Positions 135-44,298 of a stretch of 64,000 nt of DNA are shown here, in pieces. The notes beneath the pieces are model-generated. The model ran no database searches, was not told where the DNA came from, and saw only the letters and a list, made by a program, of their open reading frames with translations. The DNA is from a virus: the IMG/VR virus record IMGVR_UViG_3300045988_182799; one strand, 5' to 3'. The position numbers and the translations under genes are program-made. Numbering within the stretch: position 1 is the first letter of the stretch; the number at the start of each line of letters is the position of its first letter.

Positions 135-210
135 TGGTGGAAATAGAGGGATTCGAACCCTCGACCCCCTGCTTGCAAAGCAGGTGCTCTCCCAGCTGAG
201 CTATATCCCC
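135..210 (-). tRNA. tRNA-Ala(UGC): tRNA-Ala (anticodon UGC)
   Basis: Reverse complement reads GGGGATATAGCTCAGCTGGGAGAGCACCTGCTTTGCAAGCAGGGGGTCGAGGGTTCGAATCCCTCTATTTCCACCA. It has a 7-bp acceptor stem, GTTCGAATC T-loop, anticodon loop TTTGCAA and an encoded CCA. Confidence 0.85.
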
Positions 211-240
211 ATGATGGCGGGGCATCCCCGCCGGACAGTT

Positions 241-633: not shown

Positions 634-825
634 CTCCTTTCTACTTCAAGTTGTCATGCACTGTGGCAGATAACGCTCTGCACTGCGAGGCTTTACGTTG
701 CCCATTCGTGTTCGGTTCCGGCTACGACGACTTCCGTAAGGACTTAGCCAACCGCCAACAGGTGCATGCCCCCGTTGGAAGCTTCTTGGGCGGATTCTCA
801 AAGAGCGCGTCGCCCAATCGGACCG

Positions 826-901
826 TGGAGCTTAGTGGCAGATTCGAACTGCCCGCCTGCACATTACGAGTGTGCCGCTCTGCCTAATGAGCTAACCAAG
901 C
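826..901 (-). tRNA. tRNA-Thr(CGU): tRNA-Thr (anticodon CGU)
   Basis: Reverse complement GCTTGGTTAGCTCATTAGGCAGAGCGGCACACTCGTAATGTGCAGGCGGGCAGTTCGAATCTGCCACTAAGCTCCA folds as a 76-nt cloverleaf with anticodon loop CTCGTAA. The acceptor stem has one G-U pair. Confidence 0.75.
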
Positions 902-1187
902 ATGGCAGGATGTTTTATGCTTGTTATCATCCCAAATCAGGGCAGCCAACCCTGCATCAAGCACCATCCGGCAGCCACGCCGATGGATTCTGTATTGTAC
1001 CCTCTCCGCCGTTTTCCGGTCTCATTCGCGACTGATACTGGGACTTTCGGATACTCTCAGGCACAGCACCTGTTTGCCGATTCTTTTAGAGGCTGTCCAT
1101 TGGCATTCGGACAGCGGACCACAAGTGGACCATGCTCGCTTTATTTAGTGTCGTGCGTACGGTGACAGCGACGGTGGAGCGGGCAGC

Positions 1188-1262
1188 GGGATTCATTTCT
1201 ATTCACGCCACCCATGTGGGCAGCGACAATTGCTATACCCCGCGTGGTGGGTCACGTCTGGC
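1188..1262 (-). pseudogene. decayed tRNA-like remnant
   Basis: Reverse complement begins CGCGGGGTATAGCAATTG, nearly identical to the 5' end of the tRNA-Met at 2870-2943, and ends ...GAATCCCGCTGCCCGCTCCA. It has acceptor-like termini and a T-loop-like GAATCC, but no foldable anticodon arm. Confidence 0.25.
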
Positions 1263-1279
1263 TTTCGCTTTTGCGGCCT

Positions 1280-1474
1280 TTATTTTGCTTCGCTGTTTAT
1301 GTACCCAAACCAGCAGCTTTCGCAGCCAGCGAACCCCGCGCACCCTTCCTCGTACACGTCATTCCATGGCGGACATCTGAAATTCTTTTCAAAGACTTTT
1401 ACCATGTTCTTTTTGATATCTTCCACGGGTCCGCTGAACTTCATTCCTTTTGTCAATTCTTCAAAAACCGTCAT
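1280..1474 (-). CDS. small hypothetical protein (64 aa)
   Basis: The AT-rich 5' half encodes a Lys-rich peptide (MTVFEELTKGMKFSGPVEDIKKNMVKVFEKNF...). An RBS (GGAAGGAAAG) precedes the ATG, and hairpin element 1 sits just upstream. The C-terminal third is GC-rich and may be read-through. Confidence 0.35.
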   Translation of the reverse strand: MTVFEELTKGMKFSGPVEDIKKNMVKVFEKNFRCPPWNDVYEEGCAGFAGCESCWFGYINSEAK

Positions 1475-1489
1475 TTTTCTTTCCTTCCT

Positions 1490-1514
1490 TCTCGCCGCGT
1501 GGAGGCTACCAGCG
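1490..1514. other. conserved hairpin-loop element, copy 1 (partial)
   Basis: Contains GCCGCGTGGAGGCTACCAGCG, a 15/16 match to the core shared by copies 2-6. The flanking stem is weak. Confidence 0.4.
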
Positions 1515-1523
1515 TAGGGATAT

Positions 1524-1598
1524 TGGAGGAGTATATCGGGGTCGAACCGACGTTATCTGCTTGGAGGGCAGAGGTATTAACCGTTATACGAATACTCC
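1524..1598 (-). tRNA. tRNA-Gly(UCC): tRNA-Gly (anticodon UCC)
   Basis: Reverse complement GGAGTATTCGTATAACGGTTAATACCTCTGCCCTCCAAGCAGATAACGTCGGTTCGACCCCGATATACTCCTCCA. Anticodon loop is CCTCCAA. Confidence 0.85.
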
Positions 1599-2366
1599 AC
1601 AAGATTGCGGGTGAACCCTCATTTAGCCCCGCCATGATGTTCGTTTAGGAGGTAGTCGGCCCCGAACGCCATCTTTACACCACTTGACAATCTTGCGAAT
1701 CTCATCGCTGACTATGCGTGAGAATCCAAGAAAGCGCTTAGGTGTTGGTCAACTTCAAATCTTAGAGCCCTACCGTTACTTCTCTGTCAATTCGGGCAAA
1801 CGGTTTTCGATGGGCTACGTGTGTAAGACTGCGGCTTACTTACCAGCTGCCGTGCAGCAGTCTCGCCTATACGGCTGTGTCGCGTCTGGCTGCGCCCCGG
1901 CTTTACGGGGATGCTCGTACGTCTGCATGCTTGATGGGGCGGGATTTGTTGTTTCCGAACCGTAGTTCGAGAGGAAGCACTCGTCCACACAACTTCCTGG
2001 CCTTTAGGGATACCGCTCACACCGGGAATTGTGATGCGATTCCCACGATTGAAGACTTCGCCATGTCGCGGGTATTGACCGCAACAATGTTGCCCACTGC
2101 TCACCACGAGGAGGTTGTCTTCTGAGCAGTAGCGCGGATTGTGTGGAGCAGTCCGCGCAAGCAGCTTCCGCGTATTCCCTGCTGCTTGAGGGAGCTTGTT
2201 GAGCGTCCGCCGACGCCGTACCCCGGAGGGAACGTCCAAAGGCGTTTTGCAGTACGGAAAAGTTCGGTTTAGAGCCATGAACTGGGCCAAGGACTGCTTA
2301 CCTTGTCTGGTTTGCCCTCCAGATTGGGTTGAGAGCATTCGTCAGCGACTGTAGTAATCGTTGTCC

Positions 2367-2400
2367 ACCACCCGCCGCGTGGAGGCTGTCTCATGGGTGG
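2367..2400. other. conserved hairpin-loop element, copy 2
   Basis: CCACCC-[GCCGCGTGGAGGCTGTCTCAT]-GGGTGG: a 6-bp stem enclosing the conserved 21-nt loop. Confidence 0.55.
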
Positions 2401-2523
2401 CTGGGCACGTCGGATGTTTCCGGCGTGCCCAGATAGGCGCTACCTATCGTGTCGTTCTAAGGCGGGAGCTGCCCGCCATCAGGTTTACCTGTGCATCGGA
2501 TTATCCCTTTCACTTATGCGGCC

Positions 2524-2624
2524 TGTCGGACGTAATTAGTGCATAGGCGTTCTCCTTTGTTCAGATTTTGACATCGGACGCGGTAATTACTGCATCGGAG
2601 TGCCCTCCCTGTTAGATTTCGACC
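2524..2624. repeat. two tandem degenerate ~50-nt repeats inside the ncRNA candidate
   Basis: Unit 1 is TGTCGGACGTAATTAGTGCATAGGCGTTCTCCTTTGTTCAGATTTTGACA. Unit 2 is CATCGGACGCGGTAATTACTGCATCGGAGTGCCCTCCCTGTTAGATTTCGACC. Aligned by eye at roughly 70% identity. Confidence 0.5.
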
Positions 2625-2758
2625 TGTTTAACGTCCGTGTCAGGACGTGTTCTGGATGGGTGGTGTCACACCACCGTGTTCCGTGCTTACGCGTCGCACC
2701 TGTACTCCACTATTACGCCTTATCGCGCGATTGACGTGTTCCCTTGTACTACACCCAG

Positions 2759-2835
2759 TGGCGACTCGTGCCGGACTCGAACCGGCGACCTCCAGCGTGA
2801 CAGGCTGGCGTTCTAACCATCTGAACTAACGAGCC
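2759..2835 (-). tRNA. tRNA-Asp(GUC): tRNA-Asp (anticodon GUC)
   Basis: Reverse complement GGCTCGTTAGTTCAGATGGTTAGAACGCCAGCCTGTCACGCTGGAGGTCGCCGGTTCGAGTCCGGCACGAGTCGCCA. Anticodon loop is CTGTCAC. Confidence 0.85.
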
Positions 2836-2869
2836 ATATATGACCGATTTAGCGTCGCGGCCGAGACGA

Positions 2870-2943
2870 TGGATACGGGGATGGGACTTGAACCCACAAC
2901 CACCAGCGTATGAGGCTGGTAAGCTACCATTGCTATACCCCGT
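2870..2943 (-). tRNA. tRNA-Met(CAU): tRNA-Met/Ile2 (anticodon CAU)
   Basis: Reverse complement ACGGGGTATAGCAATGGTAGCTTACCAGCCTCATACGCTGGTGGTTGTGGGTTCAAGTCCCATCCCCGTATCCA. Anticodon loop is CTCATAC. Initiator, elongator or lysidine-Ile identity cannot be decided by eye. Confidence 0.8.
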
Positions 2944-2992
2944 GTCAATAACAAGACATTGGCCGCAAGAACCTTCAAAACTTGCGTTGTCC

Positions 2993-3027
2993 ATCCCTCG
3001 CCACGCGGAGGCTGTCTTGTGAGGGAT
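2993..3027. other. conserved hairpin-loop element, copy 3
   Basis: ATCCCTC-[GCCACGCGGAGGCTGTCTTGT]-GAGGGAT: a 7-bp perfect stem with a 21-nt loop. Confidence 0.55.
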
Positions 3028-3204
3028 TCTCGGAGATTGCGCAAGGATGTGTAGAACTATACTGGTGTAGTATGATGTGCTGCAAGCAGCTACAATGCAC
3101 ATTCTCCGAGGTTGTTATTACCGTCTATCAAGTGAGGGTATGTAGCACTATAGTAGTTGTGATGTGTGTCGGGATGACACTTACAACACTTGATATTCGG
3201 TATA

Positions 3205-3280
3205 TGGCGGGTCGTACAGGGCTCGAACCTGTGACATCTTGATTAACAGTCAAGCGCTCTGCCGACTGAGCTAACGACCC
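3205..3280 (-). tRNA. tRNA-Asn(GUU): tRNA-Asn (anticodon GUU)
   Basis: Reverse complement GGGTCGTTAGCTCAGTCGGCAGAGCGCTTGACTGTTAATCAAGATGTCACAGGTTCGAGCCCTGTACGACCCGCCA. Anticodon loop is CTGTTAA. Confidence 0.85.
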
Positions 3281-3324
3281 AGAAATAAGACATTTGCCAC
3301 GGGGAGCTCAATACCCGTGTTACC

Positions 3325-3357
3325 GTCACCGCCGCGAGGAGGCTGTCTTATGGTGAC
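3325..3357. other. conserved hairpin-loop element, copy 4
   Basis: GTCACC-[GCCGCGAGGAGGCTGTCTTAT]-GGTGAC: a 6-bp perfect stem with a 21-nt loop. Confidence 0.55.
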
Positions 3358-3450
3358 ATAGCCCGCAAGATGTGTGTATAGCATCGTATCAAGAAGTTAC
3401 GATTCATCAAGCGGGATTTTGGATTTCAACGGAGGAACGATGAAAACCAA

Positions 3451-3526
3451 TGGAGCTTCCGGTGGGACTCGAACCCACAACCTACTGATTACAAGACAGT
3501 TGCTCCGCCTGTTGAGCCACAGAAGC
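3451..3526 (-). tRNA. tRNA-Thr(UGU): tRNA-Thr (anticodon UGU)
   Basis: Reverse complement GCTTCTGTGGCTCAACAGGCGGAGCAACTGTCTTGTAATCAGTAGGTTGTGGGTTCGAGTCCCACCGGAAGCTCCA. Anticodon loop is CTTGTAA; the anticodon stem has one non-WC pair at its base. Confidence 0.75.
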
Positions 3527-3571
3527 ATGGTAGTCGCAAGGAGTAAAACCTTGACGACTAATGTATTATTT

Positions 3572-3599
3572 AGTATATGCGGTTCGCACGATTCGGCAA
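3572..3599 (-). promoter_or_regulatory. sigma70-type promoter of the conserved-spacer family; likely drives the tRNA array
   Basis: Minus strand reads TTGCCG-aatCGTGCGAACCGca-TATACT, with a 16-nt spacer carrying the family core. It lies directly upstream of tRNA-Thr(UGU). Confidence 0.45.
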
Positions 3600-8394: not shown

Positions 8395-8482
8395 TGTTGA
8401 GTCCTCCTTGCAAATAAAAAAGCAGGCTCTTAAAAGAACCTGCTTTCGTGGTCGTTAATACACTTTTTGGTCTACAATATTC

Positions 8483-8510
8483 AGTTTACTCAATTCGCAC
8501 AAACGCGCAA
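8483..8510 (-). promoter_or_regulatory. promoter a of the conserved-spacer family
   Basis: Minus strand TTGCGC-gttTGTGCGAATTGag-TAAACT. Confidence 0.5.
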
Positions 8511-8530
8511 GAAGGCAACATGAAACGGTT

Positions 8531-11530: not shown

Positions 11531-11558
11531 ATCTTACGCAATTCGCATATTTTGACAA
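11531..11558 (-). promoter_or_regulatory. promoter c of the conserved-spacer family
   Basis: Minus strand TTGTCA-aaaTATGCGAATTGcg-TAAGAT. Confidence 0.5.
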
Positions 11559-12888: not shown

Positions 12889-13017
12889 TGGAAATTTCTC
12901 CTTTCAAATAAAAAGAGCGGGCCTACCCCGGAATGGGATAAGTCCGCTCTTAAAACAGATTGTGAACGATAGAAAATCGTAACATCTTTATGTGTTTGGT
13001 ATCTATCGTACAATCAA

Positions 13018-13046
13018 TATTGTAGTCAATTCGAAAGGAATGGCAA
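13018..13046 (-). promoter_or_regulatory. promoter d of the conserved-spacer family
   Basis: Minus strand TTGCCA-ttcCTTTCGAATTGac-TACAAT. Confidence 0.5.
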
Positions 13047-16944: not shown

Positions 16945-17745
16945 TTAATAGATGTCGTCATAGCTGCCTCCGATTCCGGCCCAAAGAGCTTCATCACTCA
17001 AGTCGTTGCGAGGGCACTTGATAATGCCCGCTTCTCTTAAAATTTGTCTTGCTTCCTTTGGCGTTAAGCCGTATTGCTTGGCGAGATTCGATAGAGACTG
17101 ATTTGGGATAGCTCTGGCTTGTGTAATCAATCGCCTTTTCTTTTCTGTCCAATCGATTGCTAAGCTCTTGTTTTTTGGAGCTGAGAGAGCGGTTCTTTCA
17201 AGGTCTTTTTCGAGGTCTTTTTGGTATTTTTTTGCGGCCGCCTGAATGCCGCTGACCGTCATTCCCCATTTATCAGCAATCTTTTTATAAGACATGCCAC
17301 TGATGTAGTCTTCATATATTTGTTTGTTTCTGGCGTGCTTTTCCTGAACATCTTTCTGGCGATAGAGGCGCGTCTTCGCCAAACCTTCACGCTCTTTTTG
17401 ATACTTTTTCACGATTGACCGAACGCAGCTACTGGTAACGCCCCATTTCTCCGCTATTTTGATGCAAGACGCACCACTTATAAACTCTTCATAAATTTGC
17501 TTGTTTCTGGTATGTTTTGCCTGTGCATTTTTCTGCCAGTCAAGGCGTGTCTTCGTTAAACCATATTTGGGGTCAGAACGTAGAATTTCGACAATTCTAT
17601 AGCAAGAAAGGCTATATTTGTCCGCCAACTCCAAGACACATACACCATCCATATAATCTCTGTAAATGGCGTCATTGCGTTCTTTCAAAGATTCATAGAC
17701 GCCGTTATTCTTTGCCTTCATCATAGTATCGCTGCTTCTCATCAC
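16945..17745 (-). CDS. multi-HTH DNA-binding protein (three tandem Mor/sigma70-region-4-like repeats plus a fourth HTH)
   Basis: Three repeats of RN.QIYE.(F/Y)ISG.S..KIA.KWG.T.S.(V/I)......KKYQK, followed by LSNLAKQYGLTPKEARQIL. Confidence 0.65.
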   Translation of the reverse strand: MMRSSDTMMKAKNNGVYESLKERNDAIYRDYMDGVCVLELADKYSLSCYRIVEILRSDPKYGLTKTRLDWQKNAQAKHTRNKQIYEEFISGASCIKIAEKWGVTSSCVRSIVKKYQKEREGLAKTRLYRQKDVQEKHARNKQIYEDYISGMSYKKIADKWGMTVSGIQAAAKKYQKDLEKDLERTALSAPKNKSLAIDWTEKKRRLITQARAIPNQSLSNLAKQYGLTPKEARQILREAGIIKCPRNDLSDEALWAGIGGSYDDIY

Positions 17746-20570: not shown

Positions 20571-20668
20571 GGTCTAAGTCCTCCAAAAACACATATTGAC
20601 GCAAAAAGAATACCCCGGCAAACACTCAATGCGTTCCACCGGGGTACAATTATTTATCTTACAATATC

Positions 20669-20697
20669 AATTGTAGGCAATTCGCACAGATGGTCAA
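20669..20697 (-). promoter_or_regulatory. promoter e of the conserved-spacer family (helicase operon)
   Basis: Minus strand TTGACC-atcTGTGCGAATTGcc-TACAAT. Confidence 0.55.
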
Positions 20698-20739
20698 GTG
20701 TTTTTTACCGTATTGTGTTTTGAATTTTGCGAGTAAAAA

Positions 20740-23981: not shown

Positions 23982-24581
23982 TCACTCCTTTATGACGATA
24001 TAGTTGCCGTTGGCAAAGCCCAGCAGCTTGTTGTAAAGCTCCGCAGAAATTTCAATGAACGTCTCGCTGCACAGGCCTATCTTGTGCAGGAATCGCTTGT
24101 CTTGCTGCATAGACGATGCCATGTTAAAGGCAATGGCAAGAACCTTTTTCTGCATGCGGCCGAAAGTCACGCCTCTCATTTCCACACTGTCAGGCGTTGC
24201 TGCCCACACGGATGCCTGTACTGTAATGGCCCACAGGTCCGCATCCCAGAAGCGAGCGTTTTCGTTGCCCATCAAGGGCCGCATAATGCGCCAGGCGTTC
24301 GCGTAGCTCTTGCCTTCGACATTTTCAATGGCAGGCCCGAAGAAGCCGTCCGTTTTGTTGCTGAGTTCAATGAGACGCTCAGCCATCTTGGTGGCAGCGT
24401 AGGCCAGAGACTTGGCATCGGTGTCGTTCATTTCGATAGTCAGCTCTTCCCCATCGGGCTTGATGTACTTATACTTGTTCTCACCAATGGCTGCACTCTC
24501 CTGCAGGACGCGAGGCAGTTCCTTCAGCATTGTCTTGCTTGCACCAGCCTTCGCTTTTTCAATGTAACTGCTGTTTGACAT
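23982..24581 (-). CDS. hypothetical protein (199 aa)
   Basis: Intact ORF. No motif. Confidence 0.55.
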   Translation of the reverse strand: MSNSSYIEKAKAGASKTMLKELPRVLQESAAIGENKYKYIKPDGEELTIEMNDTDAKSLAYAATKMAERLIELSNKTDGFFGPAIENVEGKSYANAWRIMRPLMGNENARFWDADLWAITVQASVWAATPDSVEMRGVTFGRMQKKVLAIAFNMASSMQQDKRFLHKIGLCSETFIEISAELYNKLLGFANGNYIVIKE

Positions 24582-25214: not shown

Positions 25215-25402
25215 GTTCTCGCAGTGAGCGTTTTAGGTCCGCTCAAGACCCTATTCGTCTCTACCGAAGCAACGCTATCAGCGCTGTTCAGTATCTATTA
25301 GTATATGGTGGTCGCATATCGTGTCAACTGCATATCGCGGCCATGCAACAGAAAAAGGAGCCTCACCTGCTTCTTGCAGGCAAGACTCCTCATTCGTATG
25401 GT

Positions 25403-25729: not shown

Positions 25730-25777
25730 AGTGGTATTCTCCTTTGTATATGTTATTGATTTCCTGTGGTACTTATT

Positions 25778-25805
25778 ATTGTATGCGGTTCGCATAAGGC
25801 GTCAA
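25778..25805 (-). promoter_or_regulatory. promoter f of the conserved-spacer family
   Basis: Minus strand TTGACG-cctTATGCGAACCGca-TACAAT. Confidence 0.5.
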
Positions 25806-26237: not shown

Positions 26238-26284
26238 GGGAAATCTCCTTTGTATATGTTATTGGGGGCCTTCTTGCACCTTTA

Positions 26285-26312
26285 ATTGTACGCAAATCGC
26301 ACGATACAGCAA
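26285..26312 (-). promoter_or_regulatory. promoter g of the conserved-spacer family
   Basis: Minus strand TTGCTG-tatCGTGCGATTTGcg-TACAAT. Confidence 0.5.
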
Positions 26313-27601: not shown

Positions 27602-29048
27602 TCTCTTCCCCTAACTCCCTATTTGTCTCCGCATCCCCCACCATATCTCTCAGCAATACAAACATAGCTCTCAACACAATGCCAGAGCCATGATAACGCC
27701 CAACACGCTGGTGGTTTTCAGGGTCACAACAAGCGTCCAGTATCGTCGCTTGCCTGAACGCGACAGCCGCATTAAGCGCCATCGCAATGGGCGCTCCAAT
27801 GGCAAACTCGCCATCTGAGACCAGTACAAGCTTTGCAAGCCAGACGTAGGAGCGGTATACATAGAGTATCTCTTCCAGCGACATACCGCTCCAATCTGGG
27901 TTGGCGTCGTTGCCTTGGATGGAGACAATCACCTTCTTGAAGCCCGCTTTCGCATGCTGGTACTTCCTATCGGCCACATCCAGACATGCGATTTGGAACA
28001 TTGCCTTGTAAGAGGAATCATCCAGTTGCAGAGCTTTCTGGAAGCATTGCAATGCTCTCTCGCAGTCTGCATACATTTGCTTTTCGGACAGGCCGTATTG
28101 AAGGAATATCTCGGCCGTAAAAGGCATTGTCTCTTTGGAGGCGTGCTCTATGGCATCACGCAGGTATGGTCTTGCATCAAGAGCAAATTGCGGCTGTCCT
28201 TCGCACAACGCGGCAGCCAGACGGTACATAGGCACGAAGCCGGGGGCTACGCGGTAGATTTTGTTCAGCTCCGAGAGCAGCTTCTCTACCGGTTCAAGAA
28301 TCGAAAGCAGCCTTATTGTCAAAGAGGTGTAAGTCTCCAACGCGGCTGTAAGCTCTCTTAGATGTCTCTGTGCGTTCACATAAGCGTACACGGAATAGAT
28401 GCTCTGTGGCCCTACTCGACTTTGCTTTTCCAGCCCAATGAAGAAATCTGCCATCTCGTTAAGGAAGCTGTCTTCCGGCAACTTGTAATCACTCTTTAGG
28501 CTGAGAGCCTTCAGTTCGCTCATTTTCAGAACCTGAAACGTACTCTTGATTTGCAAGTGCGCGAACATGTCAAATTGCCAGAAGGTCTCATTGATGTGCT
28601 GTAGACTCGCTACTGCCATCGCATCTCCTCGCCAAACGTGACGGATGATGTCATTAAGCGCTTCCTTCTCAAACCGCATCACAGAGGAACGGCCTTGTAT
28701 AGCATCAGCACCATTGATAATCAGTTTCTGTTCCTTGATGCTGAAAGCGCACCACAATTCATTCTCAGCCGGTTCTGAATCACCGGGATAGCAGTCAGTG
28801 AGAAACAGATACGCTGTCTGTTTATTCTCAGGGTGCGCCAATATCTTATGTTGCTTTGACATGTCTTCGGCCGACATCCTGGTTGTTTTGACCAGGCAGC
28901 CAACGAATGAGAAGAATGTTCTCAAAACCTCTTGCTCTGTACCTACTTGTGGTTCATAGAAGATTTGGATTGCCGTGATGGGTTTCATTATGTTGGTCAT
29001 AATTAACTGGATAAAACGCAAAACCGCACACATGCGTTTACGAATCAC
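27567..29048 (-). CDS. large hypothetical protein (~470-490 aa)
   Basis: Intact ORF. The true start is likely at the internal MKPITAIQ (~28988). Confidence 0.55.
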   Translation of the reverse strand: MIRKRMCAVLRFIQLIMTNIMKPITAIQIFYEPQVGTEQEVLRTFFSFVGCLVKTTRMSAEDMSKQHKILAHPENKQTAYLFLTDCYPGDSEPAENELWCAFSIKEQKLIINGADAIQGRSSVMRFEKEALNDIIRHVWRGDAMAVASLQHINETFWQFDMFAHLQIKSTFQVLKMSELKALSLKSDYKLPEDSFLNEMADFFIGLEKQSRVGPQSIYSVYAYVNAQRHLRELTAALETYTSLTIRLLSILEPVEKLLSELNKIYRVAPGFVPMYRLAAALCEGQPQFALDARPYLRDAIEHASKETMPFTAEIFLQYGLSEKQMYADCERALQCFQKALQLDDSSYKAMFQIACLDVADRKYQHAKAGFKKVIVSIQGNDANPDWSGMSLEEILYVYRSYVWLAKLVLVSDGEFAIGAPIAMALNAAVAFRQATILDACCDPENHQRVGRYHGSGIVLRAMFVLLRDMVGDAETNRELGEEIENNIKCYGIK

Positions 29049-29065
29049 ATGTGTGCGGTATAAGA

Positions 29066-29683
29066 TTATATCGTTTCTTTTTTCGGGTAGATGCCACTCG
29101 TAGTAGCAGTAAACAGCTTTTGGAAGATTGCTACAGCTACCAGGCAGAACCTCTCTGATTTTGTTCTTCCTTCTACTTGCAGGCAGCCGCTTTCCTGAAT
29201 TTGTAGCAGCGCCTTATAGATGGCTCCATAGATGGTCTTTCGGAGGTCTGCATCTTCTTTGAGTACAACCACGATGTCTTTCGATGCCCAGGTGCAGACG
29301 CACATGAGTTCTGAAAACTTTTCGTCTTCTCCTTCAAAGGCCAGCTTCCCGCCGAGTGCGAAAGCTGCAAGTGCCAGTTTGTAAAGGTCCTCGTCATCTT
29401 TCGGCGTTTCGAGTTTGTCAGACTCTTTTGTGGCATCCCATACTTTAAGGATACCGTCAGCATATTTTGCCGACATGAAAGCAAGTCTGGTTCGCGTAAA
29501 ATCGTTTGCCTTTACACGCTGCTCAGTTTCGGGATTGTAACAGGTCGTACTATCTACAATGTACTGCTGCTTCATCGTCGTCTCGATAGCTCGAACTGCA
29601 GGCATCAGACTTTTTGTATAGCTTTCAAGGGCTTGAAAGCCTTTATCCCCTTCGCTATTGCGATTCTTGTAATTGCACTTCAT
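29066..29683 (-). CDS. hypothetical protein (205 aa)
   Basis: Intact ORF. Confidence 0.5.
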   Translation of the reverse strand: MKCNYKNRNSEGDKGFQALESYTKSLMPAVRAIETTMKQQYIVDSTTCYNPETEQRVKANDFTRTRLAFMSAKYADGILKVWDATKESDKLETPKDDEDLYKLALAAFALGGKLAFEGEDEKFSELMCVCTWASKDIVVVLKEDADLRKTIYGAIYKALLQIQESGCLQVEGRTKSERFCLVAVAIFQKLFTATTSGIYPKKETI

Positions 29684-29694
29684 AGATGCCTCCG

Positions 29695-30306
29695 TTACGC
29701 AATAGAATTAACCATATCCAACTCCATACAGAAAACCACGAAGGCCAGGTTGGTGATTTTATCGGCATCCGTATCGAGATGCCCGACAAGTTCCTTGACC
29801 GCACCGCTGTCCTTGAGGCTCTTGGCCGCCTGGTAGACGAGCATGTAGGTGTTGACGTAGATGGCCTGCTGCATCACGCGGTCCTTGGTAATGTGCTCCG
29901 GCATGCAATCCACGGAAAGTGACTTGATGAGCGGATACCAACAGGAAAGGTACAAAGCACCACCCTCATCGTTCATCGCCTGCTGAATCTTGACCTGATA
30001 CTTCGGGTAGTTACCGTTCACGACCTCAATGAACTCGGTATCTTTGAACTCATCGCGGTGGCAGTGAAGCCACAGGATAGCGTTGGCAAGGTCCATGCAG
30101 ATGAGTGCCAGCTTTTCGGCTTTGGCATCATCCAGTTTGACGGTATCGAAGCTGTCAGCATCGATGTCATACTGCTTGTAAATGTTCACCAGCTTGTAGC
30201 TATTCTCCCCTGCGCGTACCTTTGCCTTGATGAAGTCGGTAAAGTCGTGCGCCAGGGCCTCGTAGGCTTTCTGCTGCTCTTCGGCAATCGTATTCTGTTC
30301 GCTCAT
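29695..30306 (-). CDS. hypothetical protein, paralog A2 of a two-member family (203 aa)
   Basis: Start at MSEQNTIAEE with RBS AAAGGAGAA. Shares YKLVN(I/L)Y, A(I/T)LWL, (E/V)DCMP(D/E) and DADKI(T/G)NLAF blocks with 31534-32145. Confidence 0.6.
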   Translation of the reverse strand: MSEQNTIAEEQQKAYEALAHDFTDFIKAKVRAGENSYKLVNIYKQYDIDADSFDTVKLDDAKAEKLALICMDLANAILWLHCHRDEFKDTEFIEVVNGNYPKYQVKIQQAMNDEGGALYLSCWYPLIKSLSVDCMPEHITKDRVMQQAIYVNTYMLVYQAAKSLKDSGAVKELVGHLDTDADKITNLAFVVFCMELDMVNSIA

Positions 30307-30320
30307 GTTGAGTTCTCCTT

Positions 30321-30764
30321 TTATCTTAATTTGGTCCTGATTTCTTCGAGCATCATGCCCAGTTTGTTCTGACCGTGAACGCCCTTGCATCTGGGACACT
30401 GGCAATCCCCCCAATAGTTATCGTGCCAGCCGGTCGTGTCTTCGATAATGTGCCGGTCGCCTGTAGCGAGCAGTCGCTGTTTGAACTCCTCGTTCTGGCT
30501 GAACTTGGCATACAGCACCCGGCGCATCGCTTCGTCTCGAACTTCGTCCCAATCTGGAGAAAGTTGGACCCGGCGGCCGAGTTTCTTCGCCTCGTTCGGC
30601 ATGAGGCAGGCAAACTGGCGTCTCTCCTCCAGCGGGACCTTCTGGGCCTGGAACGCTGCCTCCGCGTTGAGGTAGTAGATTCCATCCAGCACAAAGGAGC
30701 AAGGATAATAATTGCTCAGAAACCCGTAGGTCGGGTCGCCTTTCTTAAACCGCAGCAGATTCAA
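30321..30764 (-). CDS. NADAR (YbiA-like) domain protein
   Basis: FLSNYYPCSF...YLNAEAAFQAQK...EAKKLGRR...PDWDEVRDEAMRRVLYAKFSQNEEFKQRLLATGDRHIIEDTTGWHDNYWGDC...GQNKLGMMLEEIR follows the NADAR fold pattern end to end. Confidence 0.8.
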   Translation of the reverse strand: MNLLRFKKGDPTYGFLSNYYPCSFVLDGIYYLNAEAAFQAQKVPLEERRQFACLMPNEAKKLGRRVQLSPDWDEVRDEAMRRVLYAKFSQNEEFKQRLLATGDRHIIEDTTGWHDNYWGDCQCPRCKGVHGQNKLGMMLEEIRTKLR

Positions 30765-31407
30765 TGTGCATTCCCTCCATGACCCCGGCGGGCGTATCTT
30801 TGAGAACCTTGTATCGCATCGTCGTAACGCCCAGCAGACCGTTGAAGATGGTCACAGCGGTATGCGTGAACAGAGGGTTCTGCAAGGTCATCTTGCCGTT
30901 TGTATCCCACTGGCCTTTGAGTGCAGCGGCCGCATCGTACACAACCATCATCATGGCTTCATACATGTCGGACATCAGCTGTCGGTCGTACTTCTTCAAA
31001 GCATAGTAGCTTGGCAGGTTGTAAACGCGGCCGAGGAGCGGCTCGTCATACAAGGGCGAACCTTTCGCAACCATCGTATTGTAGACTTTGGGCCAGGCAT
31101 CTTCTTTCGGCTTGCCGGTGGTTGCCTGCATCTCGATGTTCTTGAAACCAGCCGTCATGTTGTACAGCACCATGAGCCGCTCGGCAAGCAAGACAGAAGA
31201 TTCAGCCAGGTGCTTTGCTTCCTCATTGGTCATCGCAACCTGCATGGCCGTGCTGTCCGAGTCGTTGCCATAATAGAAATACTGCTTGCGCCCGGCGGCA
31301 GCTTTCTGTACGAGCTTCTTTGCCAGCTGGCTCTCGATGTAATTGTAGATGTCGTTCTCCAACTCGCAGGTGATGCGCGTTGCGGTATAATGGATATTTT
31401 TGTTCAT
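30745..31407 (-). CDS. hypothetical protein (220 aa)
   Basis: Intact ORF between paralog A1 and NADAR. Confidence 0.55.
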   Translation of the reverse strand: MNKNIHYTATRITCELENDIYNYIESQLAKKLVQKAAAGRKQYFYYGNDSDSTAMQVAMTNEEAKHLAESSVLLAERLMVLYNMTAGFKNIEMQATTGKPKEDAWPKVYNTMVAKGSPLYDEPLLGRVYNLPSYYALKKYDRQLMSDMYEAMMMVVYDAAAALKGQWDTNGKMTLQNPLFTHTAVTIFNGLLGVTTMRYKVLKDTPAGVMEGMHIESAAV

Positions 31408-31488
31408 GTAGTAGCCTCTTTCTGCATAGTAAAAAGAAAGAGCGGGCGAGCCGCTCTCCTCAAGACACTTATTTATCTTACGATTTTT

Positions 31489-31516
31489 ATTCTATGCAAT
31501 TCGCACAGACACGCAA
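31489..31516 (-). promoter_or_regulatory. promoter h of the conserved-spacer family
   Basis: Minus strand TTGCGT-gtcTGTGCGAATTGca-TAGAAT. Confidence 0.55.
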
Positions 31517-31533
31517 GGCGAAATAGCGACAGC

Positions 31534-32145
31534 TCACGGATTCATCTCGTATGCAATCAGCGCGTCATTGAAATACTTGAAAGCCAAGTTGCCGATTTTA
31601 TCGGCGTCCTTCGGCAGCTTGTCCACCATGCGCTTAATAGAGCCGCCCGTCTTGAGAGACTTCATCGCAAGGTGAACATTCCAGTACATGTTGGTATACA
31701 CCAACTGCCACTTCTTCTTATCGCCGACATAAGCATCCGGCATACAGTCTTCTGCCACAAGGCGGATAAGCATATCCCACGCATCCAGATAGAGCGGGCT
31801 TGTATTGTCGTTCAGCTTATGGATGATTTGCTTCAGATAGGAAGTGTAGTCTTCCCCGCTGATGTCAACGAGCTCGATGTCTGCGAACTTGTCGCGGAAG
31901 TAGTACAGCCAAAGCGTTGCTTTTGCAAGGTCGCAGCTGGCCGCAGCAAGCAGCTGAGCCTTTTCGTCCGGCAAAGTCACAATCTTGGCATCAGGGTCAT
32001 CCAAGCCCTTCTCACCATAGAGATTGACCAGCTTGTACTGGTCTTTGCCGACTCTATCCTCTCTGCGAATAAACTCTTTGAAGTCTTCCACGAAGGCAAT
32101 GTATGCCTGGACTTGCGGGTCGTTTTTCGGGTTGAACTCACTCAT
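31534..32145 (-). CDS. hypothetical protein, paralog A1 (203 aa)
   Basis: See paralog A2. Sits behind promoter i. Confidence 0.6.
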   Translation of the reverse strand: MSEFNPKNDPQVQAYIAFVEDFKEFIRREDRVGKDQYKLVNLYGEKGLDDPDAKIVTLPDEKAQLLAAASCDLAKATLWLYYFRDKFADIELVDISGEDYTSYLKQIIHKLNDNTSPLYLDAWDMLIRLVAEDCMPDAYVGDKKKWQLVYTNMYWNVHLAMKSLKTGGSIKRMVDKLPKDADKIGNLAFKYFNDALIAYEMNP

Positions 32146-32178
32146 GTGCGCTTCTCCTTTACTTTAGTCTACCTACAA

Positions 32179-32206
32179 TGATACTCAATTCGAACGGATG
32201 AACAAG
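32179..32206 (-). promoter_or_regulatory. promoter i of the conserved-spacer family
   Basis: Minus strand TTGTTC-atcCGTTCGAATTGag-TATCAT. Confidence 0.5.
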
Positions 32207-32335
32207 GAACCTTACGACATGTACATGGTTTCTTTAGAAATTGTTATCACGCTTTTAATAAACAGCGTCAAATCTCGCATTTTTGTATTCCATGTGTTAT
32301 AAATGCAAGTAGAAAAGAAGGATGAGGCGTTTTTT

Positions 32336-32770
32336 ATGACACAAACTGATACTAAGACCCGTATCACTGGTTTTGGCTTTTACCTGGATGAAATCGAAAA
32401 GCTGATATTTTACATTTTCCTTGAGAATCATCATCAGACTACAGATGCAATGACCGCTTCGGATAATGTTCGGGTGTTCCTTGACCGTATTTGTCTCGAT
32501 AACGGCCGCATTAACTACGATGAAGCGGATAGGCTTTTGGCAAAGGATGACGATTGTGCCTTGATGGGCGAATGCCTTACTGCTATCCTCAATTATGAGT
32601 TTGGAGAAGAGCTACTCTCTTGCCACTGTAGCGGTTCGACCGCCATGAACCGTCCGTGCCTTATACTTTCATCTGAAAAAAGCCATGATGAGTCGGCTTC
32701 GGCGTATGTGCAGAAAGCGGCGAAGGAACTGCTCGTAGATTTTGAGCATGTGTGCCACCATGCCCTGTAA
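32336..32770 (+). CDS. hypothetical protein (144 aa); one of only two credible plus-strand genes
   Basis: ATG at 32336 preceded by GGATGAGG. Divergent from paralog A1 and convergent with the small-protein pair at 32817-33207. Confidence 0.45.
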   Translation: MTQTDTKTRITGFGFYLDEIEKLIFYIFLENHHQTTDAMTASDNVRVFLDRICLDNGRINYDEADRLLAKDDDCALMGECLTAILNYEFGEELLSCHCSGSTAMNRPCLILSSEKSHDESASAYVQKAAKELLVDFEHVCHHAL

Positions 32771-34470: not shown

Positions 34471-34818
34471 TCATGGGCTGGCTTCCCTGCAGCAAAATGC
34501 TCTTTTTGGGTTCCCGCTCGGAAAATAGAACATCCTTGGCTCCGGGTAGTCATTCTGTTGGCGGCGCTTTGTATATATCCTGCCTTCAAACTCAAATTGA
34601 TATACGACAGAATAGTTGTAGTTCTTATAGGTGGGTTCACTGGAGTCATACGGCAAGTTCCGGATTTTGACAGGCGTAGCCATAGCACAGTAACCTTTAT
34701 CTTTTGCTGCCTGAACCTGCTCTTCGTATGTGTTGAACCAGTGAGGATGCTTGGCTACCGGTATGCCGATACAGATGATGACAATGAAGGTTGAGATAGC
34801 GAATAAAGCGATATTCAT
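34471..34818 (-). CDS. membrane protein (115 aa)
   Basis: N-terminal TM segment LFAISTFIVIICIGIPV. Confidence 0.5.
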   Translation of the reverse strand: MNIALFAISTFIVIICIGIPVAKHPHWFNTYEEQVQAAKDKGYCAMATPVKIRNLPYDSSEPTYKNYNYSVVYQFEFEGRIYTKRRQQNDYPEPRMFYFPSGNPKRAFCCREASP

Positions 34819-36092
34819 TGCCAGTCCCTCCCATAGACTCTGATGTCAGAAGGATATTCGGTCATCATCTTATATTCTTCATCATCAGCCTTCACATCGC
34901 TCCATGTCCACTTACCATCCGCAAAAATAATGACATGTCCCCTTTGAAGCTCTGAGACGTATTTTGCGTTCTTTTCGCTCAAGTGGCATGCTTTTGCCAC
35001 ATTGGGAACCAAATGGCTGAATATTTTGTGGTATACCTGTACATCTGAATCAGCCATGATTTCATGGAGAAACGCATCGTCTATACCGTCGTTAAACACG
35101 CTGGTAACGGTGATTACGGTGCAGTCACAGGGCATCGCGTTCTGGCAGAGGTGTTTGCTCCAGCTCAAAGTGGTGTCACGCTCCAGCATAAACGGAGCAT
35201 TTTTCATAACGTCACGGTTCTCGCCAAAGAATACATCCCGCATCAGAATAGCCTTCTTGTCCGCCTCGTCCTGCATACGCTCGCTGAGGATTTCAAAGCA
35301 ATAGGCCATCATAAAGTCCTTGGCCGTACTGTCTTTTTCGATTTGTCCCCTGTATTTCATAAAGTCCAGCACAAGGAAAGGACTATCCCAATCAACATCC
35401 GTCTTATGGTTGAACCAGCCATAAGGTCCATCTACAAACTGTGAAAGCACGTTTGTGAAGTCATCAAGTTCTTTCAGATGTGCAAGCTTAATAGTCGTAT
35501 AAAAGTCTTCTATAGTCGGGAACTCTTTGTACTGGTCTGAGTCTTCCACGAGAAGACTGGCATTGTCATAGGTGATGCCTTTGACCTTATAAAGGCGGTA
35601 GAGTAACGCATCAAGCAATCCCGCTTGCTCTGGTGTCATCTCAGGATACATTGCTCTGAACACTGTGAGCAGTTCCTGTACTTTTCTTGTTAGAACGGAA
35701 CACTTACGGGAGCCTTCTTTCGGCTTGCGAATGTCGAACAAGTTGATATGTGAGTTTTCTTCTCCTATAATCACGTTCTTACCGCCAAGCTGGTCGCACA
35801 TATAGCCGTACTCTTCACGGCTCAACCCATCCGTTAGGATAGTAGCTTGTGCTCCTTGCTTGCAAAGGCGGTAAAGAATCAACTTGCCAGTAAAATCCTT
35901 GCCCTGGCCGTGGCTTCCGACAATGGAGATGACTGAGTTTTGATGCTTGGAAGCGTCAGTCATGTTGACGACTATATCGGCATCCTCTTTTCCTGTCCAG
36001 CACTTTGCAATGCTGATACCGCCTTCTTCTTGAATCGGTATGATTTCAGGAACATTAGCGGGCGCTTGCTTCTTTTTGAAAAACGGAAACAT
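34815..36092 (-). CDS. P-loop ATPase of the VirD4/TraG coupling-protein type (no N-terminal TM)
   Basis: Walker A IVGSHGQGKDFTGKLIL resembles the APTRSGKGVGxVIP motif of T4SS coupling proteins; a Walker B-like hhhhD is present. Start placed at MFPFFKKK (RBS GGGAGGG); the upstream GTG overlaps promoter j. Confidence 0.5.
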   Translation of the reverse strand: MFPFFKKKQAPANVPEIIPIQEEGGISIAKCWTGKEDADIVVNMTDASKHQNSVISIVGSHGQGKDFTGKLILYRLCKQGAQATILTDGLSREEYGYMCDQLGGKNVIIGEENSHINLFDIRKPKEGSRKCSVLTRKVQELLTVFRAMYPEMTPEQAGLLDALLYRLYKVKGITYDNASLLVEDSDQYKEFPTIEDFYTTIKLAHLKELDDFTNVLSQFVDGPYGWFNHKTDVDWDSPFLVLDFMKYRGQIEKDSTAKDFMMAYCFEILSERMQDEADKKAILMRDVFFGENRDVMKNAPFMLERDTTLSWSKHLCQNAMPCDCTVITVTSVFNDGIDDAFLHEIMADSDVQVYHKIFSHLVPNVAKACHLSEKNAKYVSELQRGHVIIFADGKWTWSDVKADDEEYKMMTEYPSDIRVYGRDWQ

Positions 36093-36126
36093 GTCATTTT
36101 CCCTCCCAATATGTATCTGATTTTTA

Positions 36127-36154
36127 TTATCTGCAATTCGCACAATTCATCAAA
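36127..36154 (-). promoter_or_regulatory. promoter j of the conserved-spacer family
   Basis: Minus strand TTGATG-aatTGTGCGAATTGca-GATAAT. Confidence 0.55.
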
Positions 36155-38640: not shown

Positions 38641-38724
38641 AAATATCCTCCAAAATATGTTATTTGTTTTCGGCTTCCCGATGGTTTGTTAGAAAGCAAA
38701 GTTGTCTGCCAGCCGTAGCTGTTG

Positions 38725-38772
38725 CCCGCTGCCCGCCTCGTGGAGGCCCCTTTGCATAAAGGCAGCTGCGGG
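38725..38772. other. conserved hairpin-loop element, copy 5 (variant)
   Basis: CCCGCTGCC-[CGCCTCGTGGAGGCCCCTTTGCATAAA]-GGCAGCTGCGGG. Lies immediately 3' of the stop of the 38784-39380 gene. Confidence 0.45.
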
Positions 38773-41199: not shown

Positions 41200-41259
41200 G
41201 GCTTTCTCCCCTTCTTTTTCGTTCTGAAGACTATTTGCCAGGAGCCTTTCCCGTTGCCC

Positions 41260-41296
41260 GCCGCTTGCCCCGTGGAGGCTGTCTTCGTTGAGCGGC
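41260..41296. other. conserved hairpin-loop element, copy 6
   Basis: GCCGCT-[TGCCCCGTGGAGGCTGTCTTCGTTG]-AGCGGC. Lies immediately 3' of the flotillin gene stop, followed by a second small hairpin GCAGCCC-TCAAT-GGGCTGC. Confidence 0.5.
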
Positions 41297-43022: not shown

Positions 43023-43266
43023 ATACATACTCCTTTCGCTCATCACAACCAATGCCTGTCTTTTGTGCAGGCGCGAATACAAACAAAAAAGCTGCGGAAG
43101 CAAAAGCAACCACAGCCTTTTATATGAACCACCGGCCCAGGAAAAAGCCGATGGGGTGAATACAAGCGGAAAGCAAACATGTCAAAGTGAGAGGAAACCA
43201 CGTCGTACACACCGGCAGGAAGAGGTTAAGACCCGCCGGAACCCAATTCCGCTTGTACAATTCTAA

Positions 43267-43293
43267 TTCTACGCAATTCGCACAAATGCACAA
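43267..43293 (-). promoter_or_regulatory. promoter k of the conserved-spacer family (flotillin operon)
   Basis: Minus strand TTGTGC-attTGTGCGAATTGcg-TAGAAT. Confidence 0.55.
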
Positions 43294-43305
43294 GACATTA
43301 TTTCG

Positions 43306-44270: not shown

Positions 44271-44298
44271 ATTGTTGCCAATTCGCACGTTTTGGCAA
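44271..44298 (-). promoter_or_regulatory. promoter l of the conserved-spacer family
   Basis: Minus strand TTGCCA-aaaCGTGCGAATTGgc-AACAAT. Confidence 0.45.

What the first reader, a model, noticed from the sequence alone, without database searches (positions are those of the whole stretch)
29066..32206. NADAR gene bracketed by two paralogous 203-aa genes of an undescribed family
29695-30306 and 31534-32145 share four sequence blocks (YKLVNxY, ATLWL, DCMP(D/E), DADKIxNLAF) at about 30% identity, each with its own strong RBS. The upstream one has its own family promoter (i); promoter h lies between the two, upstream of the gene at 30745. The only recognisable gene between them is a full-length NADAR domain protein; NADAR enzymes are known to reverse ADP-ribosylation of guanine bases. 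A duplicated unknown gene flanking a base-de-ADP-ribosylase could be a specificity or partner factor, or decoy substrates.
Basis: seen in the sequence. Interest (0 to 1): 0.6.

Follow-up and report, generated by a model that had tools for sequence, protein, structure and literature searches.

The report
Plasmid NADAR among new helical paralogs
A DNA-repairing "NADAR" enzyme on a large mobile element from a human-gut bacterium sits among at least three copies of an undescribed protein family. The copy tied to the enzyme is the overlooked middle gene, not the two flanking copies that were flagged.

Summary
The two 203-aa genes are paralogs: 42% identity over 192 aa, no gaps, E 2e-49. The gene between them includes a full-length NADAR. 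The family has no match in Pfam, PHROGs, NCBIfam, PADLOC or the PDB, and a confident AF2 model has no structural neighbour.

The family is a superfamily of about 11 subfamilies, confined to 100-390 kb conjugative-plasmid-like elements of human-gut Clostridia. The window holds four members: D, C, B and a copy at 23982-24581.

The flagged paralogs belong to an acidic core clade that mostly lacks NADAR nearby: 79 of 114 members have none within 5 kb. The NADAR-linked gene is the "unrecognisable" 220-aa gene C (subfamily F6, sister F3). It lies directly upstream of NADAR in 38 of 39 cases, in two different flank contexts. It overlaps or abuts the NADAR start, and two natural in-frame fusions exist.

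Best reading: an orphan AdfN-like NADAR counter-defence gene with a conserved helical partner, inside a variable cargo island. The core paralogs look like non-enzymatic binders of unknown target. No function has been demonstrated. Interest is moderate.

The parts
32178..32205 (-). Promoter i upstream of D: -35 TTGTTC (32205-32200), a 16-nt spacer containing the family-invariant CGAATTG, and -10 TATCAT (32183-32178).
   Evidence: Repeat family D4. Alignment of 8 copies. Sequence. Consensus match only; activity not shown.
31534..32145 (-). Gene D, 203 aa. Core-clade member (subfamily F1) of the new helical superfamily, pI 5.0. It has its own promoter and is followed by a terminator-like hairpin.
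   Evidence: BLASTP to B at 42% identity, E 2e-49. AF2 model pLDDT 88.5, pTM 0.88. No Pfam, PHROG, NCBIfam, PADLOC or PDB match. dN/dS 0.03.
31489..31516 (-). Promoter h upstream of C: -35 TTGCGT (31516-31511), a 16-nt spacer with CGAATTG, and -10 TAGAAT (31494-31489).
   Evidence: Repeat families D1 and D4. Alignment.
31437..31459 (-). Terminator-like hairpin GGAGAGCGG-CTCGC-CCGCTCTTT followed by a T-run. It can end the D transcript, but it lies downstream of promoter h, inside the leader of C.
   Evidence: Terminator scan. RNA fold. No Rfam family.
30745..31407 (-). Gene C, 220 aa, pI 8.4. Divergent member (subfamily F6) of the same superfamily. Its stop overlaps the NADAR start by 20 nt. 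This is the NADAR-linked member.
   Evidence: hhalign to the core profile E 5e-5. Local hmmsearch E 4.7e-7. F3+F6 vs core probability 90%, E 1.7e-6. 34% identity to F3, E 8e-33. Directly upstream of NADAR in 38 of 39 F3/F6 cases.
30321..30764 (-). Orphan NADAR glycohydrolase, 147 aa, TTG start with GGAGGG RBS. Motif inspection shows E35 and K42 spaced as the catalytic E88/K95 of E. coli C7 NADAR, and a YbiA-type Glu (E108) in the last strand.
   Evidence: Pfam PF08719 E 1.6e-28 and a partial Phage_30_3 hit. NCBIfam TIGR02464 at 88.9 bits against a 73.7 cut-off. PHROG 1017. Residue roles from PMC11543638 and PMC11125620.
29695..30306 (-). Gene B, 203 aa. Core-clade member (subfamily F5), pI 4.8. 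Its start lies 14 nt after the NADAR stop, with its own AAGGAG RBS.
   Evidence: dN/dS 0.10.
29066..29683 (-). Gene A, 205 aa, last gene of the C-NADAR-B-A unit; its start lies 11 nt after the B stop. Membership of the superfamily is unproven.
   Evidence: hhalign to the family E 0.01-0.3, probability below 5%, though collinear. Homologues next to F9 members in distant elements L010 and L071, E 1e-35.
29012..29058 (-). Intrinsic-terminator-like hairpin (11-bp stem CCGCACACATG / CATGTGTGCGG followed by TTTTGCGTTTT) that ends the C-NADAR-B-A unit.
   Evidence: Read directly from the sequence. The scan tool missed it because the loop is longer than 8 nt.
23982..24581 (-). Fourth superfamily member in the window (subfamily F8, 199 aa, pI 6.6), 5.1 kb downstream of B.
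   Evidence: hmmsearch with the core profile E 2e-5, collinear over positions 1-140. 33% identity over 202 aa to subfamily F4.

Best explanation
SHOWN. The stretch is two transcription units: [D], then [C-NADAR-B-A]. It sits in a variable cargo island of a large conjugative-plasmid-like element from human-gut Clostridia (Oscillospirales-like). It encodes an orphan, catalytically intact-looking, YbiA-type NADAR. Around it are members of an undescribed superfamily of about 200-aa proteins specific to this element lineage. The modelled member (D) is mainly alpha-helical. The two flagged 203-aa genes belong to an acidic core clade that usually occurs without NADAR. Gene C belongs to a basic, divergent subfamily (F6/F3) that is almost always the gene immediately upstream of NADAR and co-transcribed with it.

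INFERRED. The NADAR acts like phage AdfN. After the element enters a cell, it removes ADP-ribose that host toxins of the DarT1 or YarT type place on guanines of the element's DNA. C is made together with NADAR from one mRNA and acts as its accessory protein, for example to target, stabilise or regulate it. The core paralogs B and D, and the copy at 23982, are non-enzymatic binding proteins, each under strong purifying selection. They serve other establishment or anti-defence tasks, possibly each against a different host target.
For: Element type:
- A VirB4-like ATPase (TraG P-loop) with best matches on Subdoligranulum and Vescimonas megaplasmids.
- A second VirB4-like ATPase and a sortase.
- PcfJ in relatives.
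- Only 1 hit in 185,579 species genomes, a Clostridiales MAG. Many hits in human-gut metagenomes and in IMG/VR contigs of up to 389 kb.

Cargo-island character:
- AcrVA2-like and Apyc1-like MBL genes, RlaP, HNH, orphan methyltransferases, AAA_15/RloB, HipA and Cas5/8/7 in the window or allelic loci.
- Recurrent deletions and chimeras.

NADAR:
-.
- Orphan phage NADARs counter DarTG1, and T4 AdfN appears to need another phage factor (PMC11825919).
- YbiA-type NADARs hydrolyse G-ADPr and neutralise YarT (PMC11125620).

C-NADAR module:
- 38 of 39 adjacency.
- It is retained in two architectures with different flanks: D-C-NADAR-B versus helicase-F3-NADAR.
- The NADARs are 59% identical and the partners 34% identical.
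- There is a 20-nt overlap in the window and a 22-nt gap with an RBS in L007.
- Two fusion proteins with different junctions exist.

Core family as a binder:
- AF2 gives a helical bundle with a small sheet, pLDDT 88.5.
- Across 11 subfamilies only D60 is a conserved polar residue; the other conserved positions are hydrophobic.
- dN/dS is 0.03-0.13.
Against: - No experiment or structure links C to NADAR. My only in-silico test, AF2 on the natural fusion P0138, failed (pLDDT 33).
- All F3/F6-NADAR pairs come from one lineage of elements, so adjacency may simply be inherited synteny.
- One element (L080) keeps an intact F3 with NADAR deleted.
- The fusions are rare (2-3 of 78 clusters) and could be assembly or frameshift artefacts.
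- The loci were retrieved through the family itself and hold only +/-10 kb, so co-occurrence figures are biased and a more distant NADAR would be missed.
- oriT and relaxase were not located, so 'leading region' and early expression are not shown.
- NADAR also gives weak hits to candidate defence-system models (PDC-M42C, DS32_2), so a defence role rather than a counter-defence role is not excluded.
- IMG/VR labels these contigs viral.
Confidence: 0.4

Rival explanations
1. Synteny without function. The helical superfamily has roles of its own in the element (establishment, anti-defence or maintenance). NADAR is an independent cargo gene that happened to insert next to one member. The C-NADAR adjacency reflects shared descent and co-transcription only.
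For: - Most family members have no NADAR nearby.
- All pairs come from one element lineage.
- An intact F3 exists without NADAR in L080.
- dS differs between adjacent genes, so the region is a recombination mosaic.
Against: - The pair survives where both flanks differ.
- It also survives in a region with frequent deletions.
- The genes overlap or abut.
- Two different in-frame fusions exist.
Confidence: 0.33
2. One reading: the flanking 203-aa paralogs B and D are specificity or partner factors, or decoys, for the NADAR.
For: - B lies directly downstream of NADAR in all 7 evaluable B-type (F5) loci.
- D lies one gene upstream.
- The T4 AdfN paper suggests that an extra factor may be needed.
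Against: - Their closest relatives (F0, F1 elsewhere, F7) occur without NADAR. F0 has NADAR within 5 kb in 0 of 58 members; F1 has none within 5 kb in 15 of 22.
- D is a separate transcription unit with its own promoter and terminator.
Confidence: 0.07
3. C-NADAR is a toxin-antitoxin or defence-type pair, analogous to DarT1-NADAR or YarT-YbiA. C would be the toxic partner and NADAR would reverse its action.
For: - Bicistronic layout with overlapping genes and a basic upstream protein.
- Precedents: DarT1-NADAR and YarT-YbiA.
- Weak NADAR hits to PDC-M42C and DS32_2.
Against: - C has no ART, DarT or DUF4433 signature (Pfam, E up to 0.1).
- It is homologous to a helical family whose members stand alone.
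- An intact F3 persists without NADAR.
- Fusions are tolerated.
Confidence: 0.08
4. The family are transcription factors (sigma-, anti-sigma- or TetR-effector-domain-like) that act on the element's repeated promoter family.
For: - The element has at least 13 copies of an unusual conserved promoter.
Against: - There is no HTH and no sigma region by Pfam.
- A Mor-like activator is already present at 16945-17745.
Confidence: 0.07

Closest known systems
AdfN: orphan phage NADAR that counters DarTG1 (T4 gp30.3, Bas32, Bas60; PMC11825919)
   Same: A stand-alone minimal NADAR on a mobile element with no DarT next to it. Partial Pfam Phage_30_3 match. The catalytic Glu/Lys motif is retained.
   Different: It is carried by a conjugative-plasmid-like element of gut Clostridia rather than a coliphage. 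It has a YbiA-type Glu (not the phage-type His) in the last strand. It is always preceded by a conserved co-transcribed helical gene (F6/F3). Activity is untested.
DarT1-NADAR (DarTG1) and YarT-YbiA toxin-antitoxin pairs (PMC11543638, PMC11125620)
   Same: A two-gene unit in which NADAR is the downstream, tightly coupled gene. The NADAR is of the YbiA type, as in YarT-YbiA.
   Different: The upstream gene is not an ADP-ribosyltransferase. It has no DUF4433 or ART hit, and it belongs to a family whose modelled member is a helical bundle. Its homologues stand alone elsewhere.
Anti-defence islands in plasmid leading regions (PMC11541004)
   Same: A co-oriented block of small, mostly uncharacterised genes mixed with anti-CRISPR-like genes, methyltransferases, nucleases and TA-like genes. 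Content varies between related elements.
   Different: oriT and relaxase were not located, so a leading-region position is unproven. The promoters look like double-stranded sigma-A-type promoters with a conserved spacer, not Frpo-type ssDNA hairpins. The islands also carry defence-type cargo: Cas5/8/7 and AAA_15/RloB.
Acidic DNA-mimic anti-restriction proteins (ArdA, Ocr)
   Same: Small, acidic proteins encoded by mobile elements, with no enzymatic motifs.

Membership tests
NADAR superfamily (Pfam PF08719) | Full-length match to the NADAR/YbiA-fold profile above the curated threshold | tested here: met
   PF08719 at 100.5 bits against a 35.1 cut-off, model positions 2-163 of 163. TIGR02464 at 88.9 bits against 73.7.
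NADAR superfamily (Pfam PF08719) | Catalytic Glu and phosphate-binding Lys (E88/K95 in E. coli C7 NADAR), plus an acidic or His residue in the last strand | tested here: met
   By motif inspection only: NAE35AAFQAQK42 has the same i/i+7 spacing, and IIE108D...D115NYWG gives a YbiA-type Glu. Residue roles are from PMC11543638 and PMC11125620. No structure-based alignment was made.
AdfN-type orphan counter-defence NADAR | NADAR on a mobile element with no adjacent DarT or ART toxin | tested here: met
   No DUF4433 or ART hit in A, B, C, D or the other neighbours scanned (Pfam E up to 0.1). Element context.
AdfN-type orphan counter-defence NADAR | Removes G-ADPr from DNA and restores replication or transfer in DarTG1 hosts | not testable with these tools
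   Requires biochemistry or genetics.
DarTG1 / YarT-YbiA toxin-antitoxin | The upstream partner is an ADP-ribosyltransferase | tested here: not met
   C has no Pfam, NCBIfam or PADLOC hit. It is homologous to the helical family.
New helical superfamily (F0-F10, this report) | About 200 aa and collinear profile match, including the D-x-x-A...L helix start, the F87 position and the C-terminal A...F..L helix | tested here: met
   B and D: E 2e-49. C: hhalign E 5e-5 and hmmsearch E 4.7e-7. 23982-24581: E 2e-5. Core vs divergent clade: probability 95.7%, E 9.5e-9. For A the test is inconclusive (E 0.01, probability 4%).
ArdA/Ocr-type DNA mimics | Profile match or a strongly acidic, DNA-like charge pattern | tested here: not met
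   No Pfam hit. pI 4.4-5.3 with moderate net charge in the core clade, and pI 8.4-9.1 in F3/F6. No structural match.
Plasmid leading-region anti-defence island | Location next to oriT on the first-transferred side, with genes on the T-strand | not tested
   No relaxase or oriT was identified in the window. Only co-orientation and gene content are consistent.

The most novel reading that the evidence does not exclude
The F6/F3 helical protein is an obligate accessory subunit of a minimal YbiA-type NADAR, giving a two-component DNA de-ADP-ribosylase on conjugative elements. It would target or activate the enzyme on incoming element DNA. This would give a concrete example of the 'additional factor' proposed to explain why T4 AdfN works only in its own phage context. 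It would also mark the wider helical superfamily as a new class of modular adaptor or inhibitor proteins in mobile-element establishment.
Probability: 0.2. Interest if true: 0.65.

Novelty: new variant of a known kind. Interest (0 to 1): 0.4.

Why it matters
Orphan NADARs have only recently been shown to be phage counter-defences against DNA ADP-ribosylation. For T4 AdfN, why activity depends on phage context is an open question. A conserved, co-translated partner gene that is occasionally fused to NADAR, found in a different class of mobile element, gives a directly testable candidate for an accessory factor.

Separately, the work defines a structurally orphan protein superfamily. It is present in one to four copies within the 20 kb examined around a family member, in large extrachromosomal elements that recur in many human-gut metagenome assemblies. 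Each copy is under strong purifying selection. That makes it a reasonable target for anti-defence or establishment screens in gut Clostridia.

Tried and rejected
- AF2 on the natural F3-NADAR fusion P0138, used as a stand-in for a multimer prediction, failed: pLDDT 33, pTM 0.19. MAFFT mis-aligned the window NADAR, so the NADAR half had only two sequences. The result is uninformative.
- DNA and protein searches of INPHARED phages and PLSDB plasmids found no relative of the region or the family.
- Gene A as a fifth family member: collinear but not significant. Left open.
- C as a DarT/ART toxin: no profile hit, and the fold class is wrong. Rejected.
- DNA-mimic idea: the charge is only moderate and the NADAR-linked subfamily is basic. 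Not supported.
- Positive-selection or arms-race signature: pairwise dN/dS is 0.03-0.29, so selection is purifying. Not supported at this timescale.
- Rfam scan of the intergenic leaders: nothing found.
- Searching C alone found only near-identical proteins. The F3+F6 profile found only F3 and F6 members. The NADAR-linked subfamily could therefore not be traced outside this element lineage.
Full report
**1. What is in the sequence**

All genes in and around 29066-32206 are on the minus strand. Reading 5' to 3' on that strand:
- Promoter i, then gene D (31534-32145, 203 aa).
- Promoter h (-35 at 31516-31511, -10 at 31494-31489).
- A terminator-like hairpin at 31459-31437.
- Gene C (30745-31407, 220 aa).
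- NADAR (30321-30764, 147 aa). It has a TTG start with a GGAGGG RBS and overlaps the end of C by 20 nt.
- Gene B (29695-30306, 203 aa), which starts 14 nt after the NADAR stop.
- Gene A (29066-29683, 205 aa), which starts 11 nt after the B stop.
- A strong hairpin with a T-run at 29058-29012.

The stretch is therefore two units: [D] and [C-NADAR-B-A].

B and D are clear paralogs: 42% identity over 192 aa, no gaps, E 2e-49. NADAR is a full-length PF08719 match, E 1.6e-28.

**2.

C gives a weak but collinear BLASTP hit to D (E 1.5e-5) and an hhalign match to the B/D profile (E 5e-5).

I built profiles locally and searched the window and the fetched loci. C matched (E 4.7e-7), and so did a fourth gene in the window, 23982-24581 (E 2e-5).

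Clustering all 246 family ORFs from 164 loci gives 11 subfamilies, F0-F10, in two clades:
- An acidic core clade: F0, F1 (= D), F2, F5 (= B), F7 and F10. pI 4.4-5.3, 35-45% mutual identity.
- A divergent clade: F3, F4, F6 (= C), F8 (= 23982-24581) and F9.

A profile-profile comparison of the two clades gives probability 95.7%, E 9.5e-9 over 175 collinear columns.

Gene A is not demonstrably a member. However, A-like genes also sit beside family members in distant elements.

**3. The family is undescribed and structurally orphan**

- There is no hit in Pfam, PHROGs, NCBIfam, PADLOC or PDB sequences.
- HMMER against 1.84 billion cluster representatives finds only 40 proteins, many of them fragments or deletion chimeras.
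- AF2 gives a confident model of D (pLDDT 88.5, pTM 0.88): a helical bundle with a small three-stranded sheet.
- Across the 11 subfamilies the conserved positions are Y37, D60, A63, L66, L80, F87, Y119, A188 and L196. Only one is polar, and it is Asn in C. This argues for a binding or scaffold protein rather than an enzyme.
- Pairwise dN/dS is 0.03 (F1), 0.09 (F2), 0.10 (F5), 0.13 (F6) and 0.29 (F3). These are real, constrained genes.

**4. What the element is**

- The window carries a VirB4-like conjugation ATPase (TraG P-loop). Its best annotated relatives are on the 247-kb Subdoligranulum variabile plasmid and the 142-kb Vescimonas fastidiosa plasmid.
- It also carries a second VirB4-like ATPase, a sortase and a Mor-like activator, a UvrD-like helicase, a Y-family polymerase, a flotillin and an Apyc1-like MBL, and seven tRNAs.
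- Relatives carry PcfJ.
- The family occurs in just one of 185,579 species genomes, a Clostridiales MAG. It occurs in many human-gut metagenome contigs and in IMG/VR contigs of 100-390 kb. It is absent from INPHARED and PLSDB.
- I read this as a conjugative-megaplasmid-like element of gut Clostridia. The viral label in IMG/VR was not verified, and I saw no capsid, portal or tail hits among the proteins I scanned.

The surrounding region is a variable cargo island. Allelic loci carry AcrVA2-like genes, orphan methyltransferases, AAA_15/RloB, HipA, Cas5/8/7, RlaP and HNH. Many database proteins are deletion chimeras with breakpoints inside family genes.

**5. Is the family linked to NADAR?**

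Not for the genes that were flagged. Counting only members with at least 5 kb of flank on each side:
- 114 members belong to the core clade.
- 7 of them abut a NADAR, and all 7 are B-type.
- 35 have a NADAR within 5 kb.
- F0 never does (0 of 58).

The architectures without NADAR (F0 alone, F1 alone, F4...F1, F0...F4, F9-F7-F10) account for most loci.

The divergent subfamily F6/F3 behaves differently:
- 38 of 39 members lie directly upstream of a NADAR.
- This holds in two architectures with different flanks: D-C-NADAR-B here, and F2-helicase-F3-NADAR in L007-type elements.
- Between the two types, the NADARs are 59% identical and the partners 34% identical.
- The genes overlap by 20 nt here and are 22 nt apart with an RBS in L007.
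- Two metagenomic proteins, P0138 and P0142, are in-frame F3-NADAR fusions with different junctions.
- One element (L080) keeps an intact F3 with NADAR cleanly deleted.

**6. Likely function**

The NADAR has the Glu/Lys motif (E35, K42) and a YbiA-type Glu (E108), judged by motif inspection. No ART or DarT gene is nearby, so it is an orphan. Three published results are relevant:
- NADARs reverse guanine ADP-ribosylation (PMC11543638).
- YbiA-type NADARs do so too, and neutralise the ART toxin YarT (PMC11125620).
- Orphan phage NADARs (AdfN) defeat DarTG1, and T4 AdfN appears to need another phage-encoded factor (PMC11825919).

The best-supported reading is that this NADAR is an AdfN-like counter-defence gene of a conjugative element. 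By inference only, C is its co-translated accessory protein. B, D and the 23982 copy are most simply non-enzymatic binders with other targets, possibly in establishment or anti-defence.

My attempt to test a C/F3-NADAR interface by folding the natural fusion failed for lack of alignment depth.

**7. Rivals**

- Inherited synteny with no functional link is the main alternative (about 0.33). All pairs come from one lineage, and the sampling was family-centred.
- A TA or defence pair is unlikely. C has no transferase signature, belongs to a helical family whose members stand alone, and persists without NADAR.
- A regulatory role has only noise-level structural support.

**8. Verdict**

The most testable outcome is the conserved C(F6/F3)-NADAR bicistron as a candidate two-component de-ADP-ribosylase module. 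Interest is moderate (0.4), because function is inferred only and the family is confined to one lineage of elements.

Noticed in passing
window 8459-8511, 11535-11558, 12995-13039, 20646-20698, 31465-31517, 32182-32206, 43242-43294, 44275-44298; variant copies at 3563-3599, 25291-25327, 25769-25805, 26276-26312, 36117-36153: A repeated promoter family on the minus strand: -35 TTGnnn, a 16-nt spacer with an invariant CGAATTG, and -10 TAnnAT. Several copies are followed by TTGTA-GATAAATAA. It suggests element-wide co-regulation. A Mor-like activator gene lies at 16945-17745.
   Followed up: partly
window 31437-31516: Promoter h lies upstream of the terminator-like hairpin, so the order is promoter, then hairpin with U-run, then the RBS of C. 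The U-run can also pair with the RBS region. This may be an attenuator or leader. No Rfam match.
   Followed up: partly
window 135-3526: An array of seven tRNA genes (Ala, Thr, Gly, Asp, Met, Asn, Thr) on the minus strand of the element.
   Followed up: no
L001 10001-10762 (P0030); L008 8001-8783 (P0043); L164 6423-7091 (P0093); P0079; P0139: Recurrent deletion chimeras with breakpoints inside family genes: the N-half of B fused to the RlaP C-terminus (about 8.7 kb deleted relative to the window), F1 fused to PcfJ, F3 fused to HNH, and F3 fused to the NADAR C-terminus. The island is a deletion hot spot.
   Followed up: partly
window 29066-29683; L010 2723-3325; L071 6406-7029: Gene A (205 aa, unknown) has homologues (E 1e-35) next to F9 family members in distant elements that lack NADAR. 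It aligns collinearly but not significantly with the family (hhalign E 0.01). It may be a very remote member.
   Followed up: partly
L011 3073-6170; L164 8794-12366; L165 15731-18863: Related elements carry SecY, SecE and a trigger-factor/FKBP-like gene (L011). Others carry Cas5d/Csd1/Cas7 with no Cas3 among the genes called in the fetched stretch (L164), or three orphan DNA methyltransferases (L165).
   Followed up: no
window 34815-36143: A 442-aa protein consisting only of a VirB4-like C-terminal ATPase region (NCBIfam conju_CD1110, E 4e-21). It is in addition to the full-length 890-aa VirB4-like gene at 59880-62552.
   Followed up: no
window 30321-30764 (NADAR residues 121-130): The NADAR carries a CxCPxC(x3)H insertion after the WG motif. 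The three Cys are conserved in the F3-linked NADARs (CHCPKC). This may be a small metal-binding knuckle, which is not a feature I know from characterised NADARs.
   Followed up: no
window 32303-32770 (+); L001 7568-8002 (-); L007 7513-7947 (-): The only opposite-strand gene near the locus (about 144-155 aa, no family hit). An opposite-strand gene of about 144 aa also lies next to the module in both architectures, at different positions; homology between them was not checked. It could be a local regulator.
   Followed up: no
window 2088-3348, 38720-38752, 41252-41284: A 33-nt GC-rich repeat (6 copies; + strand CGTTGTCCACCACCCGCCGCGTGGAGGCTGTCT). Four copies lie in the tRNA array and the others in two intergenic sites.
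   Followed up: no
L053-L082 (F2, F3, NADAR): Synonymous divergence differs several-fold between adjacent genes in the same set of loci (mean dS 0.12, 0.26 and 0.60). This indicates gene-scale recombination mosaics among the elements.
   Followed up: no
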